Shown here piece by piece: positions 10,701 to 13,700 of a stretch of 32,225 nt of DNA (position 1 is its first letter; the number at the start of each line of letters is the position of its first letter). Source of the stretch: a bacterium (GTDB lineage Bacteria; Sysuimicrobiota; Sysuimicrobiia; Sysuimicrobiales; Humicultoraceae); assembly GCA_041497675.1 (NCBI GenBank), contig JBGQGY010000029.1, positions 1-32,225 of the forward strand, in the 5' to 3' direction. A program made the position numbers.

Positions 10701-13700
10701 GTGGGGACGCGCGGGCGGGCGGCCCGGGGCGCAGGGGACGGCGATCACCAACATCGAGACGCCCGACGCGACGCCGACGGGACGCATCGACGAACTGCTG
10801 CTGCAACCCGGCGACACCATCACGTTCCTGTCGCAGGGCGGCGGAGGGTTTGGGGATCCGTACGCTCGTGATCCTTCGGCGGTGTTGTCCGATGTCCGCC
10901 GCGGGCTCGTCACGGCCGGGGCCGCCCGTGAAGCGTACGGCGTCGCGCTCTCGGATGACCATGTCGACGTTGAGGCGACGCGCGCGCTACGGGCGGCGGA
11001 GCGCGGATCCGGCGCGGCGTTCGACTTCGGGCCAGAGCGGGAGCGCTTTGAGACCATCTGGACCGACGCCATGCAACTGTCGCTCAACCGCGCGCTCGGC
11101 GCGCATCCCCTGGCCTTGCGAAACTACCTCAAACAGCGCGCCATGCAGGAGGTCGAACGCCGGGCTGCCGCCGGTGGGCGCCCGGAGCCAACGACGCTCT
11201 CGGACCTTGTGCGGGAGATCGCCGACGGGATCGCGGCCGGGCGCCGGGCCGAGCGCCCCTTTGGACAGGTGGGCGGCTAGCGGGCGGGGTCTGCGGGCTG
11301 GCGCTCCCGGGCCATGAACTCGTCGATATCGGCGCGGTAGCGGGCCGTGCGGGCGTTGAAGTCTGTGATGTTCGCCTGAAGAGACTCAATGCGGTGGTTG
11401 TATACCATCACGTCGAACTGATCGTCCGCGGCGGGCGCGGGTGGCATCCCGTCGGGAAATTGCTGGCGCCGCCGTGTGATGTTGTCGCGCAACGCCGCGA
11501 GTTCTCGTTTCTCTCTCTGGAGGGTCTCGCGCCCGCGCTCGAGATCCTCGCCGACCGCCATCAACTCGGCGCGGCGACGACGCACGTCCTCAGGTTCCCC
11601 CGGCCGCGGCGCCGAGATCCGCACGGGCGAACCCTCCGCCTGATCCGGTGCGCCGCGGATGTTGAGCCGGCCCAAGACCACCGACCAGGCCATGACGCCG
11701 ACTGCGAAGACGACGACCACGATGAGGTAGACTGCCACCCGGCTCCGCATGTCATTGAGGTGTATGCCCTGATCGGGCCCTCAGCGGACGTGGTCATGCG
11801 GTCGCCGGCGCGCGGGTGGCGCGAGGGCTGTCGCGGCCCGCAGTCTGAACTTCGAACCCGAGCTCCGTCGCGCGTGACACGAAGAAGTCGATATTCTCGG
11901 TCTTGGTCCGGTCGCCAATACTGGCGCGGTCATAACACCCGTCGATGGCCAGGACCACCGTCTCGGCCAGACACGCCGGCACGAGCCCCGGCCCGTAGCC
12001 CATGTCCAGCTGGCCCCGTGGATCGCCGGGCAGCCGCACCACCCCGCCGGGAATCACCTCGACGTCTTCACGCGCGACCACCGAGATGTCGACGTCGTAG
12101 GGCCGGCCGAGGTCAAAGATCACGGCGCCGCTGCGGACGTGCTGAGGGAAGATGACCGGCGCGGGTTCCGACGTGGCGGTGAAAACCGCGTCGGCCTCGC
12201 GCGCCGTGTTGAGATCGACGCTCACGTCGATGACGACGCTGCGATACCGCCGCTGCAGCAACTCGCGCGACCGTTCGAGGCGTTCCAGACTCGTCCCGAT
12301 CATGATCAGCCGCCCGACGTGCTCGACGACCGCGCGGCAGATGCCGAATCCCACCACGCCGTTGGCGCCCACGACAGCGGCCGCCGCCCGCGACGGATCG
12401 ACGCCGCGCGCCCGCAGCCGCGCCAGGACCAGCGGCACGGCCATCTTCACGGTGCCCGCTGTATACGCGCCGCCGTTGGTGACCGCGATGGGTGACCGCG
12501 CGGCGACGTCGACGCCTTTGTTGCCGACCACCGACCAGTACGCGCCCAGCCCCAGCACGGTCGCGCCCAGATTCGCCGCCAGGTGCGCCGCTTGAAGCGC
12601 GCGGCGCACCGCGAGCGCCGGTTCGGTCCGGATCTGATCGGGCAGCAGCGGCACGGCGATCAAATAGAGGCGCGCGCGCCGGCCATCGCGGGTCGTGATG
12701 TTGCGCAGTTCGTCCACCTTCATGGGCCGCATGAATCGGGCCAGCCACCGCACGGCGCGGTCCGAGATCAATCCCCGCTGCTGCAGGGGGCCCAGCCAGC
12801 GAAACCGGTTCGCCTCCCACACGTCACGGACGGTCATGGGGTGAATGAGAAACGCGGCCACCGCCTCCCCGCCATCGAGCCACGGCAGCGGGAGCCGGTC
12901 GCCGATTCGAGGCTCGACGCCATCGGCGATCCGGGCAAGGTGTTCCTTATAGTTCCACAGCGTGACGATGGCATACGCGGCGCCGAGCGCGAGAAAGGCC
13001 GTGTGCGCGCCGGTCAGCCACAGCGTCACCGGCAGGCTCACGGCGGCCAGCACCGTCGCCAGCGACAGATAGCCCCACGCCCGCCCCAGCGCGCGCGGCA
13101 CGACCAGCGTGGCCGCAGCGACGATCATCGGGATCGCCACGGCGGTCGGGGCGATGTCACCCAGCGCCGCCAGCGTCAGGACCGCCCCAAACGCGACAAC
13201 GGTGCTCTTCATGCGGCCGGCCGTCGATCGCACGATGAGCCAGACGGGAGAGTACGCGTGACCGAGGATGACGGCGGCGGCGGACGCGGCCAGCGGCCAG
13301 GCCGACGCGTCGAGCGTGCGGGCCGCGAGGACGCCGAGCGCGCCCTTCGCCAGGTCGAGCCCAACGACGAGCCCGAGCGTGGGATAGCCGACGGCCGCGA
13401 TCACGGCGCCCAACCCAAGGTTGTGCGGGGATAGACGCCGGATGTCGAGACCGCGCATCTGCCGCGCCACGAGATAGCCGGTCGGCAGAGCGCCGATCGC
13501 GGCGGCCAGCAGCACGGCGAACACGACCATCGTCTTACTTTGTCCCAAACAGCCGGTCGCCGGCGTCGCCCAGCCCCGGCACGATGTAGCCCTTCTCGTT
13601 CAGATGACTGTCCACGGCGCCGGTGTAGATGTCGACGTCGGGATGGGCCGCGTGCACCTTCTTGATGCCCTCTGGGGCCGAGATGATGGCCATGACCTTG

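What a model noticed while it worked through the whole genome (the two positions that open the first line are those of the whole stretch)
11794..13530. PlsY fused to an acyl-ACP-reductase-like domain in a genome without PlsX
The only glycerol-3-phosphate acyltransferase gene (g01403, 578 aa) is a fusion: membrane PlsY (1-212) plus a 365-aa cytoplasmic domain homologous to cyanobacterial long-chain acyl-ACP reductase (AAR) and the thioester-reductase domain of PigE, with the nucleotide-binding GxxGxxG and the acyl-accepting cysteine kept. PlsY needs acyl-phosphate, yet no PlsX (the only known maker of acyl-phosphate from acyl-ACP) and no PlsB exist in the genome. I propose that the fused domain takes the acyl chain from acyl-ACP onto its cysteine and releases it by phosphorolysis, as its fold relatives ArgC, Asd and GAPDH do in reverse, handing acyl-phosphate straight to PlsY: a PlsX-independent start of phosphol [...]
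Evidence so far: Pfam G3P_acyltransf at 11-201 only; residues 215-578 match solved AAR 6jzu (E 4e-13, 275 aa) and PigE 4ppm (E 2e-17), NCBIfam AcACP_reductase TIGR04058 2e-13, argC 2.5e-3; alignments put CLAET on AAR's FACFAEA and PigE's GCMAET, and VVGANGVVG on VVGATGDIG. PF02504 (PlsX) six-frame search of the genome: 0 hits, while 8 of 14 control genomes ring over the cut-off; gene tables list no FA_synthesis or PlsB. In the order, PlsX is missing from 23 of 94 genomes; orthologues of the fused domain (>=52% identity, open frames 495-644 aa) occur in 29 genomes, among them 16 of the 23 without PlsX (all of genera g1,g2,g7,g11,g13,g30 and 5 of 6 in g3, incl. a 4-contig 97% complete genome) against 13 of the [...]
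(Added by a program. Inside this text positions count along the whole contig: contig position 1 is position 1 of the stretch shown here. "Call 12" and the like, gene names such as g00115 and contig names such as C1 are that model's own, and its searches are not shown. The text may have been shortened before it was handed on; [...] marks where a part breaks off. The agent that wrote the report below was given it as the finding of a first reader that could run no searches.)

Follow-up and report, generated by a model that had tools for sequence, protein, structure and literature searches.

The report
PlsY fused to AAR-like domain
The only PlsY-type lipid-starting enzyme of this uncultured bacterium carries a fused cysteine/NAD-binding domain related to acyl-ACP reductase, and comparison with other genomes suggests that this domain supplies PlsY with its activated fatty acid where the usual supplier PlsX is missing.

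Summary
Window 11794-13530 (minus strand) encodes a 578-aa protein: a PlsY-family membrane domain (1-203), a 19-residue linker, and an AAR/PigE-type domain (R, 223-569) with Cys520 and GANGVVG. The genome (98.6% complete) has one PlsY hit and no PlsX, DegV/FakB or PlsB, but has CdsA and FASII.

What I add:
- The PlsY domain is not canonical. Ser35, Thr41, Arg45, His177 and Asn180 (Aquifex numbering) are replaced. All fusions carry a 5-residue insert in the acyl-phosphate loop.
- The fusion is old and widespread, and it often coexists with PlsX.
- All 14 PlsX-less genomes of the phylum at >=90% completeness have either the fusion (11) or a DegV-PlsY gene pair (3).
- A separate PlsY-R clade with a canonical PlsY domain occurs in CPR bacteria. 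One is a closed Berkelbacteria chromosome without PlsX, DegV, ACP or acyl-CoA ligase, where the fusion overlaps gpsA.
- R also occurs fused to a PlsC-type acyltransferase, START domains, aminotransferases and an unknown partner X that this genome keeps.

Best reading (0.5): R hands PlsY its acyl donor independently of PlsX, probably acyl-phosphate made from a Cys520 thioester. Real reductase activity is not excluded. The claimed ArgC/Asd/GAPDH fold kinship is not supported.

The parts
11794..13530 (-). Whole gene, 578 aa plus stop: PlsY-like domain, linker and AAR-like (R) domain
   Evidence: Open frame. Domain hits. AF2 model with pLDDT 92.2 and pTM 0.89. Coordinates checked by translation.
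12922..13530 (-). PlsY-family membrane domain, residues 1-203
   Evidence: PF02660 at 64.5 bits. Foldseek 5xj8 at E 8e-8, TM 0.76 normalised by target length. Helices end at residue 203.
13396..13431 (-). PlsY motif 1, residues 34-45, SPHNLGLGAVIA. The canonical form in this phylum is GSGNIG[TA][VS]NVxR. Ser35->Pro, Gly36->His, Thr41->Gly, Asn42->Ala, Arg45->Ala; Asn37 is kept
   Evidence: Alignment to 5xj5. Residue roles from PMC5700162. Comparison with 30 PlsY domains. Translation.
13207..13233 (-). Loop 3 (the acyl-phosphate 'phosphate hole'), residues 100-108, VRSTAGRMK. It carries a 5-residue insertion found in fused PlsY domains only. Lys108 = Lys104 of Aquifex PlsY; Arg106 is new
   Evidence: Of the fused domains aligned there, only P0201 lacks the insertion.
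12913..12957 (-). PlsY motif 3, residues 192-206, WNYKEHLARIADGVE. His177->Tyr194, Asn180->His197; Arg183 = Arg200 and Glu189 = Glu206 are kept
12865..12921 (-). Linker, residues 204-222
   Evidence: No secondary structure between helix 195-203 and strand 223-229 in the model.
11824..12864 (-). AAR/PigE-type domain (R), residues 223-569
   Evidence: Foldseek 6jzu at E 8e-19, TM 0.77 normalised by target length; TAD 9e56 at 3e-15. Sequence matches.
12349..12369 (-). Dinucleotide loop GANGVVG, residues 388-394
   Evidence: Aligned to AAR 162-GATGDIG-168. G388, A389, G391 and V393 are invariant in 116 fusions; G394 is kept in 90% or more.
12169..12183 (-). FTATS, residues 450-454. By my reading of the alignment this is the counterpart of the AAR VASM loop that clamps the ADP moiety
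   Evidence: A452 and T453 are invariant.
11971..11973 (-). Codon of Cys520, the presumed acyl-accepting cysteine
   Evidence: Aligned to AAR Cys294 and PigE Cys296. Invariant in 116 fusions and in the 5 sequences of the CPR clade.
11277..11750 (-). Downstream ORF on the same strand, 43 bp after the stop: 157 aa, with an N-terminal hydrophobic stretch and then a charged, helix-like sequence. No family match. Whether it belongs to the system is unknown

Best explanation
The protein is a self-supplying first acyltransferase of phospholipid synthesis.

Proposed steps:
1. The cytoplasmic R domain takes a fatty acyl group onto Cys520. In this genome the likely source is acyl-ACP made by FASII.
2. 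R passes the acyl group, in a form PlsY can use, to the PlsY-like domain directly beneath it. The most likely form is acyl-phosphate made by attack of phosphate on the thioester.
3. The PlsY-like domain acylates glycerol-3-phosphate, or a closely related acceptor.
4. The phosphate released by the PlsY step could be reused by R.

The organism therefore needs neither PlsX nor a fatty-acid kinase.

Shown: the architecture, the conserved cysteine and nucleotide loops, the gene inventories and the phyletic patterns.

Inferred: the acyl donor, the phosphorolysis step, the acceptor, and any hand-over between the two domains.
For: Need for the activity in this genome. G000 has CdsA, a CDP-alcohol transferase and three KAS genes, so it makes phosphatidic-acid-based lipids. 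Yet it has only this PF02660 gene. It has no PlsX, no DegV and no PlsB-sized PF01553 protein.

Pattern in the phylum.
- 23 of 94 genomes lack PlsX, and 16 of those carry the fusion. In 12 of the 16 it is the only PlsY hit.
- Among the 14 PlsX-less genomes that are >=90% complete, 11 have the fusion and the other 3 (genus g28) have DegV next to a PlsY paralogue. None has neither.
- PlsC-type copy number does not rise when PlsX is lost: 2 copies in most genomes either way.

Independent clade in CPR bacteria.
- Berkelbacteria and Saccharibacteria carry PlsY-R fusions with canonical PlsY motifs.
- 3 of 5 such genomes lack PlsX and 0 of 5 have DegV.
- The fusion is the only PlsY hit in 4 of the 5.
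- In the closed 929-kb chromosome the fusion overlaps gpsA by 1 nt.

Recurrent fusion. 18 of the 150 best representatives of the R family, clustered at 50% identity, are PlsY-R. R is also fused to a PlsC-type acyltransferase.

Structure.
- All but one of the fused PlsY domains aligned share an insertion in the loop that binds the phosphate of acyl-phosphate; P0201 is the exception.
- Asn37 and His92 are kept in 121 of 121 fusions, and Lys104 in 111 of 121.
- The linker is only 19 residues. The two-domain model is confident, with pTM 0.89.

Precedents.
- PlsY with a C-terminal DegV domain (PMC5700162).
- In AAR the acyl-Cys forms spontaneously, and CoA and NADPH use the same cleft (PMC7089970).
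- For the AAR-like TAD domain a non-hydride nucleophile is proposed, though not demonstrated (bioRxiv 10.1101/2024.10.28.620694).
Against: - No activity has been measured.
- GANGVVG, the TATS loop and Arg417 (= AAR Arg193) are invariant. This is what a working NAD(P)H reductase would keep.
- In this genome's subfamily the residues that clamp the phosphate of glycerol-3-phosphate (Ser35, Arg45, Asn180), together with His177 and Thr41, are replaced. In Aquifex PlsY, mutation at these positions cost most of the activity: S35A/C, R45K, N180H, T41A and all His177 substitutions tried. The acceptor or donor may therefore differ.
- The same altered fusion coexists with PlsX and a canonical PlsY in genus g12 and in G025 and G028; G010 has PlsX and only a partial second PlsY hit.
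- Fusions with a canonical PlsY domain coexist with PlsX in 6 of 8 genomes of another order.
- Deinococcus has PlsX, a canonical PlsY and the fusion.
- 13 of 94 genomes, 7 of them >=90% complete, show no PlsY at all, and most of them have PlsX. A PlsY-independent acyltransferase may therefore exist in the phylum.
- A PlsC-like enzyme can acylate glycerol-3-phosphate in mycobacteria (PlsM; PMC10593935).
- The CPR genomes show no ACP in 4 of 5 and no AMP-binding ligase in 5 of 5. The acyl source there is unknown.
Confidence: 0.5

Rival explanations
1. R is a true NAD(P)H-dependent acyl-ACP/CoA reductase, as AAR and PigE are. It delivers fatty aldehyde into the membrane through or beside the PlsY-like domain for another lipid (ether or vinyl-ether lipid, alkylamine, wax). 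Glycerol-3-phosphate is acylated by something else, for example one of the two PlsC-like enzymes.
For: - The nearest characterised relatives are reductases.
- The nucleotide loops and the cysteine are invariant.
- Relatives fused to class-III aminotransferases exist. Like PigE, they presumably reduce a thioester.
- The glycerol-3-phosphate clamp of the PlsY domain is altered in this subfamily.
- The fusion coexists with complete PlsX/PlsY sets.
- PlsM shows that a PlsC-like enzyme can acylate glycerol-3-phosphate.
- 13 of 94 genomes show no PlsY.
Against: - No aldehyde-using partner was seen beside the gene in the loci annotated; the neighbours are housekeeping genes.
- PlsY chemistry has no known use for an aldehyde.
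- Reduced CPR genomes of about 0.9 Mb, without PlsX or DegV, keep the fusion with a canonical PlsY domain next to gpsA.
- No extra PlsC-type copy accompanies PlsX loss.
- Two of the three AAR arginines that hold the 2'-phosphate of NADPH, and Tyr247, are replaced.
Confidence: 0.25
2. Direct transfer. The acyl-Cys520 thioester itself is the donor, and the PlsY-like site transfers the acyl group to the acceptor without free acyl-phosphate. The fusion-specific His/Tyr36 next to Asn37 would act as the base that a thioester donor needs.
For: - Residue 36 is His in 111 and Tyr in 9 of 121 fusions, but Gly in the stand-alone PlsYs scoring over 145 bits.
- Thr41, which binds the acyl-phosphate carbonyl, is lost in about half of the fusions.
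- The phosphate-hole loop is remodelled.
- The PlsY paper argues that acyl-phosphate is its own base, unlike thioesters.
Against: - His92 and Lys104 of the phosphate hole are kept.
- The CPR clade keeps Gly36 and a fully canonical motif 1.
- The PlsY active site lies inside the membrane, while in AAR the cysteine is at the centre of the soluble domain.
Confidence: 0.1
3. Oxidative route, as in GAPDH. R oxidises a fatty aldehyde with NAD(P)+ to the Cys520 thioester and releases it with phosphate as acyl-phosphate for PlsY.
For: - It explains the strictly kept nucleotide site and cysteine together with a PlsY partner.
- It would need neither ACP nor CoA, which fits the CPR genomes.
Against: - No source of fatty aldehyde is known.
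- G000 has FASII, and hence acyl-ACP, at hand.
- No relative of this family is known to run in this direction. I searched no paper for this; the statement rests on recall.
Confidence: 0.07
4. R is an acyl-phosphate reductase (the ArgC/Asd direction). It competes with PlsY for acyl-phosphate made by PlsX.
For: - The two fused enzymes would share one substrate.
- The fusion coexists with PlsX in many genomes.
Against: It is impossible where no source of acyl-phosphate exists, as in G000 and 11 other genomes in which the fusion is the only PlsY and PlsX is absent, and in the closed Berkelbacteria genome.
Confidence: 0.04

Closest known systems
PlsX/PlsY/PlsC pathway (PlsY of Aquifex aeolicus, PDB 5XJ5-5XJ9)
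   Same: - Seven-helix PlsY fold and a Pfam family match.
- Asn37, Asp59, Lys62, His92, Lys104, Arg183 and Glu189 are kept.
- Placement among housekeeping genes; in CPR bacteria it sits next to gpsA.
   Different: - No PlsX in the genome.
- A 365-aa cytoplasmic domain is fused to the C-terminus.
- A 5-residue insertion lies in the phosphate-hole loop.
- In this subfamily Ser35, Thr41, Arg45, His177 and Asn180 are replaced.
- The score is below the NCBIfam equivalog cut-off (55 against 137 bits).
Cyanobacterial acyl-ACP reductase AAR (PDB 6JZQ/6JZU) with its partner ADO
   Same: - Fold (TM 0.77 normalised by target length), catalytic cysteine, GxxGxxG loop, second nucleotide loop, and Arg193 = Arg417.
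- In AAR the product leaves through a tunnel towards a bound partner. Here the partner is fused.
   Different: - 23% identity, and far below the family cut-off (48 against 450 bits).
- Arg189->Thr413, Arg314->Asp540, Tyr247->Arg476.
- TTGN is replaced by TNGG.
- The partner is an acyltransferase, not an aldehyde-consuming oxygenase.
PigE/TamH-type thioester reductase domains fused to aminotransferases
   Same: Best sequence match (NCBIfam PigE 1.3e-30, PDB 4ppm 5e-17). Cys296 is aligned.
   Different: There is no aminotransferase domain, and none among the neighbours annotated in the window. PigE makes an aldehyde for transamination.
TAD, the putative terminal amidation domain of the carmabin pathway (PDB 9E4S/9E56)
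   Same: AAR-like fold (Foldseek E 3e-15). NAD sits next to an invariant cysteine. The authors propose that a nucleophile other than hydride attacks the thioester.
   Different: 15-17% identity. It is part of NRPS assembly lines. Its activity is also unproven.
Fatty acid kinase FakA/FakB (DegV), and the PlsY-DegV fusions noted in PMC5700162
   Same: A PlsX-independent supply of acyl-phosphate. The supplier is fused to the C-terminus of PlsY, or encoded next to a PlsY gene.
   Different: Unrelated fold and chemistry: ATP-dependent phosphorylation of a free fatty acid. DegV is absent from G000.
ElbD of myxobacterial ether-lipid synthesis
   Same: A reductase domain and a glycerolipid acyltransferase domain in one protein. 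This is the model for the ether-lipid rival.
   Different: Its reductase and acyltransferase domains belong to other families, and it also carries ligase and carrier domains (recalled).

Membership tests
PlsY (PF02660 / TIGR00023) | Match to the family model above its cut-off | tested here: met
   Pfam 64.5 bits against a cut-off of 24.1. The stricter NCBIfam equivalog model is not reached: 55.4 against 137.2 bits.
PlsY (PF02660 / TIGR00023) | Seven-helix PlsY fold | tested here: met
   Foldseek 5xj8 at E 8e-8, TM 0.76 normalised by target length, on a model of pLDDT 92.
PlsY (PF02660 / TIGR00023) | Glycerol-3-phosphate pocket: Ser35, Arg45, Lys104 and Asn180, plus Ser142 and His177 | tested here: not met
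   Pro35, Ala45, His197 and Tyr194 stand in their places. Only Lys104 (= Lys108) is kept. Ser142 was not mapped.
PlsY (PF02660 / TIGR00023) | Acyl-phosphate site: His92, Thr41, the GGKG loop, and Asn37 as oxyanion helper | tested here: inconclusive
   His91 and Asn37 are kept. Thr41 is replaced by Gly. The GGKG loop is replaced by STAGRMKS, which includes a 5-residue insertion.
PlsY (PF02660 / TIGR00023) | Acyl-phosphate:glycerol-3-phosphate acyltransferase activity | not testable with these tools
   Needs an enzyme assay.
Acyl-ACP reductase AAR (TIGR04058) | AAR fold with a catalytic cysteine at the centre | tested here: met
   Foldseek 6jzu at E 8e-19, TM 0.77 normalised by target length. 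Cys520 is aligned to Cys294 and is invariant.
Acyl-ACP reductase AAR (TIGR04058) | Dinucleotide loop GxxGxxG and the second (VASM) loop | tested here: met
   GANGVVG and FTATS; invariant positions listed. AAR loops taken.
Acyl-ACP reductase AAR (TIGR04058) | NADPH 2'-phosphate pocket Arg189/Arg193/Arg314, and Tyr247 | tested here: not met
   Thr413, Arg417, Asp540 and Arg476 by my count of the alignment. Residue roles.
Acyl-ACP reductase AAR (TIGR04058) | Score above the equivalog cut-off | tested here: not met
   48.4 bits against 449.7.
Acyl-ACP reductase AAR (TIGR04058) | NADPH-dependent formation of fatty aldehyde | not testable with these tools
   Needs an enzyme assay.
PlsX (PF02504) | Sequence membership | tested here: not met
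   No PF02504 match in the protein or anywhere in the genome. Any likeness would be in function only.
ArgC/Asd/GAPDH-type phosphorylating aldehyde dehydrogenases | Rossmann domain plus the family's own C-terminal catalytic domain bearing the cysteine | tested here: not met
   The Semialdhyde_dh and argC matches cover residues 384-481 only and fall below their cut-offs. None of these enzymes is among the Foldseek rows shown.

The most novel reading that the evidence does not exclude
The AAR-like domain is a third, previously unrecognised maker of acyl-phosphate, beside PlsX and fatty acid kinase. A cysteine thioester is cleaved by phosphate and the product is passed straight into a fused PlsY. 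Phosphate would then cycle between the two active sites, so that the fusion works as a one-protein glycerol-3-phosphate acyltransferase. The module is ancient and occurs in Sysuimicrobiota/CSP1-3-like bacteria, Armatimonadota, Deinococcus, and MAGs labelled Bacillota and Actinomycetota. It also occurs in CPR bacteria, which lack fatty-acid synthesis, ACP and acyl-CoA ligases. There it might start membrane synthesis from a donor not yet identified. It probably works with the unknown partner protein X.
Probability: 0.35. Interest if true: 0.85.

Novelty: new variant of a known kind. Interest (0 to 1): 0.75.

Why it matters
PlsX/PlsY is described as the most widespread start of bacterial phospholipid synthesis (PMC5700162, PMC10593935; passages read). 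PlsX and fatty acid kinase are the only known sources of acyl-phosphate.

A fused domain that replaces them would have three consequences:
- It would add a new enzyme activity to a textbook pathway.
- It would explain how whole lineages manage without PlsX.
- It would bear on the open question of how CPR bacteria, which have no fatty-acid synthesis, build their membranes.

The idea is directly testable with one recombinant protein. Even if the domain proves to be a reductase, a reductase welded repeatedly to two unrelated families of glycerolipid acyltransferases would point to an undescribed lipid pathway.

I found no description of this fusion in four full-text searches or in the main text of the phylum paper. 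Supplements were not examined.

Tried and rejected
- Arg476, at the place of AAR Tyr247, as a phosphate-binding residue specific to PlsY fusions. Rejected: the same Arg occurs in free, X-fused, START-fused and aminotransferase-fused relatives, and the CPR PlsY-R clade has Val there.
- An extra PlsC-type acyltransferase compensating for PlsX loss. Copy numbers do not differ. This does not exclude that one of the two copies acylates glycerol-3-phosphate.
- Gene neighbourhood as a clue. In the window, and in loci from 7 other genomes, the neighbours are housekeeping or unrelated genes: SHMT, UPRTase, TadA, GlnA, hydantoinase; two-component and MFS genes in Deinococcus. Only the Berkelbacteria locus was informative, through gpsA.
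- Widening the search from order to phylum. The same genomes came back, so the phylum as held equals this order.
- Locus search with the single protein P0162 found nothing. The five-sequence alignment did find loci.
- A tree of 14 fusion proteins, to count independent PlsX losses. The branches within family f1 were unresolved: 7 of 11 inner forks had support under 80. I therefore claim only losses in three taxonomic families (f1, f2, f6) among fusion bearers, plus f5 without the fusion.
- Distance and tunnel between Cys520 and the PlsY site. Not measured, because the model's coordinates are not given to the script machine.
- Complex prediction for X with the R domain.
- My first gene caller, which chose the longest ORF, picked wrong strands in this GC-rich DNA. 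I replaced it with a caller based on GC at the third codon position. It still failed around the fusion in loci L053 and L054, so those two contexts were not used.

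
Full report
**1. What is there**

Window 11794-13530, minus strand, is one open frame of 578 codons with a strong coding signature (GC at third codon positions 0.87).
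- Residues 11-201 match Pfam G3P_acyltransf (PlsY) at 64.5 bits.
- Residues about 223-569 match the N-terminal thioester-reductase part of PigE (NCBIfam 1.3e-30; PDB 4ppm 5.4e-17) and cyanobacterial acyl-ACP reductase AAR (8.1e-13; PDB 6jzu 9.6e-13).
- In the printed alignments Cys520 falls on AAR Cys294 and PigE Cys296. GANGVVG (388-394) falls on the AAR dinucleotide loop 162-GATGDIG-168. That these cysteines carry the acyl thioester is stated in PMC8341465 and PMC7089970 (passages read).
- An AlphaFold2 model built on 116 fusion proteins is confident as a whole: pLDDT 92.2, pTM 0.89.
- Foldseek finds AAR (E 8e-19, TM 0.77 normalised by target length), the AAR-like TAD domain (3e-15), PlsY (8e-8, TM 0.76) and glutamyl-tRNA reductase (1e-6).
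- I call the second domain R.

**2.

The genome (3.97 Mb, 272 contigs, 98.6% complete) has:
- one PF02660 hit, which is this gene;
- no PF02504 (PlsX) hit;
- no DegV/FakB hit;
- two PF01553 hits of PlsC size, so no PlsB.

It does have CdsA, a CDP-alcohol transferase and three ketoacyl synthases. It therefore makes acyl-ACP and phosphatidic-acid-derived lipids.

In the 94 genomes of the order, which is also all that is held for the phylum:
- PlsX is missing from 23.
- Fusion-type genes occur in 29.
- 16 genomes lack PlsX and have the fusion, 13 have both, and 7 have neither.
- The counts include the unpublished genomes G022 (with PlsX) and G029 (without PlsX, with the fusion).

Relatives are labelled Armatimonadota or Candidatus Fervidifonticultor in their record titles. 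The latter name belongs to the CSP1-3/Sysuimicrobiota phylum (PMC11604079; passage read).

**3. The PlsY domain is not a standard PlsY**

I mapped the protein onto Aquifex PlsY (alignment; the PDB chain index is one higher than the paper's numbering). I then used the residue roles given in PMC5700162 (passages and Table 2 rows read).
- Kept: Asn37, Asp59, Lys62, Gly63, His92, Lys104 (= Lys108), Arg183, Glu189.
- Replaced: Ser35->Pro, Thr41->Gly, Asn42->Ala, Arg45->Ala, His177->Tyr194, Asn180->His197.
- In the Aquifex enzyme, S35A/C, R45K, N180H and T41A, and every His177 substitution tried, cost most of the activity.
- The loop that forms the 'phosphate hole' for acyl-phosphate (GGKG) carries a 5-residue insertion.

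Across 121 fusion proteins:

| Position | Residues found |
|---|---|
| 35 | Pro 58, Ser 51 |
| 41 | Thr 51, Gly 46 |
| 45 | Arg 59, Ala 50 |
| 180 | His 65, Asn 56 |
| Asn37 and His92 | 121 of 121 |
| Lys104 | 111 of 121 |
| 36 | His 111, Tyr 9 (Gly in the stand-alone PlsYs scoring over 145 bits) |

There are three subfamilies:
- F1 has a canonical pocket (GSHNIGATNVLR). An example is G004.
- F2 is the form of this phylum (SPHNLGLGxVxA).
- F3 occurs in Deinococcus and in G017/G019.

All three carry the loop insertion. F2 has the same altered residues whether or not the genome has PlsX.

**4. Three kinds of PlsY in the phylum**
- Stand-alone canonical PlsY scores 147-194 bits.
- Fused PlsY scores 62-88 bits.
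- Stand-alone paralogues score 80-128 bits.
- Genomes with PlsX and the fusion (genus g12, G025, G028) also keep a canonical PlsY.
- In 12 of the 16 PlsX-less fusion genomes the fusion is the only PlsY.

DegV occurs in 10 of 94 genomes. By coordinates, it always lies directly beside one type of PlsY paralogue. The three good genomes of genus g28, which lack both PlsX and the fusion, have this DegV-PlsY pair.

So of the 14 PlsX-less genomes at >=90% completeness, 11 have the fusion, 3 have DegV-PlsY, and none has neither. Of the other 'neither' genomes, G093 (83% complete) also has the DegV-PlsY pair, and G016, G045 and G046 are 86-89% complete.

PlsC-type copy number does not change with PlsX loss: 2 in most of the 60 genomes at >=90% completeness.

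Against a simple reading:
- 13 of 94 genomes show no PlsY at all. 7 of them are >=90% complete, all four genomes of genus g16 are among them, and most have PlsX.
- The g28 'canonical' PlsY has Asn37->Gln, Lys104->Arg and Asn180->Ser.

**5. Outside the phylum**
- The fusion is common. At least 465 proteins were found in the word-indexed search, whose 120 listed hits include 111 of 540 aa or more. They carry the labels Armatimonadota, Bacillota and Actinomycetota, and some are from Deinococcus.
- In the order of G004, 8 of 8 genomes have an F1 fusion as their only PlsY, and 6 of 8 have PlsX.
- Three Deinococcus genomes (two of them complete genomes of named strains) have PlsX, a canonical PlsY, a paralogue and the fusion.
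- The fusion is therefore older than the PlsX losses and is not merely a substitute.
- A more distant PlsY-R clade has 29-37% identity in R, canonical PlsY motifs and the same loop insertion. It lies in CPR bacteria: Berkelbacteria, Saccharibacteria and Patescibacteria.

Five CPR genomes were examined:

| Family searched | Genomes with a hit |
|---|---|
| PlsX | 2 of 5 |
| DegV | 0 of 5 |
| PP-binding (ACP) | 1 of 5 |
| AMP-binding ligases | 0 of 5 |
| Fusion as only PlsY | 4 of 5 |

In the closed 929-kb Berkelbacteria chromosome, which has none of the first four, the fusion gene overlaps gpsA by one base. Its second PlsY-like gene has Glu in place of Lys104 and a different C-terminal membrane part.

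**6. The R family**

An exhaustive search with residues 215-578 gave 2353 representatives at E <= 1e-3 and 117 at <= 1e-30. Among the best 150, local comparisons and Pfam show:
- PlsY-R fusions (18);
- free proteins of about 340-390 aa;
- fusions to an unknown protein X of about 300 aa (27);
- fusion to a PlsC-type acyltransferase (P0173);
- fusions to START/Polyketide_cyc lipid-binding domains, with or without PilZ;
- fusions to class-III aminotransferases, with or without adenylation and carrier domains (PigE-like).

In this phylum a free R (33-40% identical to the fused one) sits in a conserved row: ECF-S, CoaX, X, R, GreA, ClpC. Some R, free or fused, is present in 88 of 94 genomes.

Genomes with only the fusion lack the free R. 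In G000 the row reads CoaX, X, then an ORF where GreA stands in the relatives, with the free R missing. The fused R seems to have taken over from the free one, while X is kept.

X has no Pfam, NCBIfam or PDB sequence match. The Atlas calls its look-alikes 'quinate 5-dehydrogenase family'. Its confident model (pLDDT 94) is most like AAR itself, but weakly (E 1e-5, TM 0.44).

**7. How it most likely works**

Shown:
- a PlsY-family domain and a cysteine- and nucleotide-binding AAR-type domain lie in one chain, joined by a 19-residue linker at the C-terminal end of PlsY;
- the fusion recurs across distant lineages;
- an insertion specific to fused PlsY domains lies in the acyl-phosphate loop;
- the acyl-phosphate contacts His92, Lys104 and Asn37 are kept;
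- lineages without PlsX or DegV have this fusion as their only PlsY.

Inferred:
- R is acylated on Cys520, as AAR is spontaneously by acyl-CoA or acyl-ACP.
- The thioester is then resolved by phosphate instead of hydride, giving acyl-phosphate next to the PlsY site.

The CPR and F1 fusions have a fully canonical PlsY pocket. According to PMC5700162 the mechanism needs the donor's phosphate as proton acceptor. That points to acyl-phosphate rather than the thioester as the species handed over.

Precedents:
- PlsY with a C-terminal DegV domain.
- The AAR-like TAD, for which a non-hydride nucleophile is proposed but not shown.

In AAR the CoA moiety and NADPH use the same cleft. Invariant nucleotide loops would therefore also fit an acyl-CoA donor, or a bound cofactor that is not consumed.

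**8. What speaks against this reading**
- The invariant nucleotide site is exactly what a reductase needs, and all characterised relatives are reductases.
- The altered acceptor pocket of F2 suggests a changed substrate.
- F2 lived beside a complete PlsX/PlsY set before that set was lost.
- A PlsC-like enzyme might acylate glycerol-3-phosphate, as PlsM does.
- The acyl source in CPR genomes without ACP or ligases is unexplained.

My odds:

| Reading | Probability |
|---|---|
| PlsX-independent donor supply through acyl-phosphate | 0.5 |
| True reductase serving another lipid | 0.25 |
| Direct thioester transfer | 0.1 |
| Oxidative aldehyde route | 0.07 |
| Acyl-phosphate reductase | 0.04 |

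**9. Novelty**

Database names for these proteins are 'glycerol-3-phosphate acyltransferase' or 'predicted amino acid dehydrogenase'. These checks found no description of the fusion:
- full-text searches for PlsY with acyl-ACP reductase or fusion, COG5322, PlsX absence and the phylum names;
- the main text of the phylum paper, which does not mention PlsX, PlsY or lipids.

The PlsY structure paper looked in Pfam for fusions and reported only PlsY-DegV. R has no Pfam family of its own, which would explain why the PlsY-R fusion was missed. Supplements were not examined.

**10. Limits**
- Most genomes are metagenome bins.
- Relatives are not independent of each other.
- No coordinates, complexes or expression data were available to me.
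- FakA in genus g28 and Ser142 were not checked.

Noticed in passing
G000 contig C47 (locus L051 1447-2406, + strand); loci L045-L050: An unknown protein X of about 300-325 aa (P0121) has no Pfam, NCBIfam or PDB sequence match. In this phylum it is the conserved upstream neighbour of the free AAR-like gene, and it is fused N-terminally to AAR-like domains in 27 of 147 distant representatives. G000 keeps X although its free AAR-like gene is gone. The X model (pLDDT 94) weakly resembles AAR itself (Foldseek E 1e-5, TM 0.44).
   Followed up: partly
Order genomes G019, G043, G044, G086-G088, G093, G094, G096, G097 (coordinates): In all 10 genomes that have DegV/FakB, the gene lies directly next to one type of stand-alone PlsY paralogue (80-112 bits; motif 1 reads NGNIGGMN or GGNVGSMN in the two copies I aligned). 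This looks like a dedicated fatty-acid-kinase/PlsY module. FakA was not searched.
   Followed up: partly
G086 contig C13:12675-13202 (locus L068); the g28 sister genomes G087 and G088 score alike but were not aligned: In genus g28, which has neither PlsX nor the fusion, the best-scoring PlsY has Asn37->Gln, Lys104->Arg and Asn180->Ser. This suggests changed or relaxed function after PlsX loss.
   Followed up: no
Proteins P0173; P0151, P0166, P0207, P0224; P0187, P0231, P0254; P0185, P0192, P0255, P0263, P0269; P0230: The AAR-like domain also occurs fused to other domains: a PlsC-type acyltransferase; START/Polyketide_cyc lipid-binding domains (some with PilZ, one also with HTH); class-III aminotransferases (some with adenylation or carrier domains); and GAF.
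   Followed up: partly
G019 contig C30 and G017 contig C27 (loci L061, L062): The G019 fusion groups with the Deinococcus subfamily (support 100/100 in a 14-sequence tree) and not with the rest of its phylum; G017 was not in the tree, and its 52% hit resembles G019's 53% one. tblastn reports 1-2 in-frame TGA codons inside the match in both. This may reflect transfer or an old paralogue, possibly decaying.
   Followed up: no
Order genomes G015, G020, G021, G024, G045-G048, G050, G059, G060, G073, G075: These genomes have no PlsY hit at all, although 11 of the 13 have PlsX. All four genomes of genus g16 are affected. Either the short gene was missed in assembly or a PlsY-independent first acyltransferase exists.
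   Followed up: no
G106 (closed Berkelbacteria chromosome) C1:461239-462423, locus L158 940-2124, - strand: A second PlsY-like gene of 394 aa. It has Glu at the Lys104 position and an extra C-terminal membrane part of about 190 aa that was not identified.
   Followed up: no
window 13604-15574, + strand: The serine hydroxymethyltransferase frame read from the first start codon is 656 aa, but the SHMT match begins at residue 218, and relatives are 442-454 aa. The real start is probably further downstream. The gene is divergent from the fusion, as in related genomes (SHMT, UPRTase, fusion).
   Followed up: no
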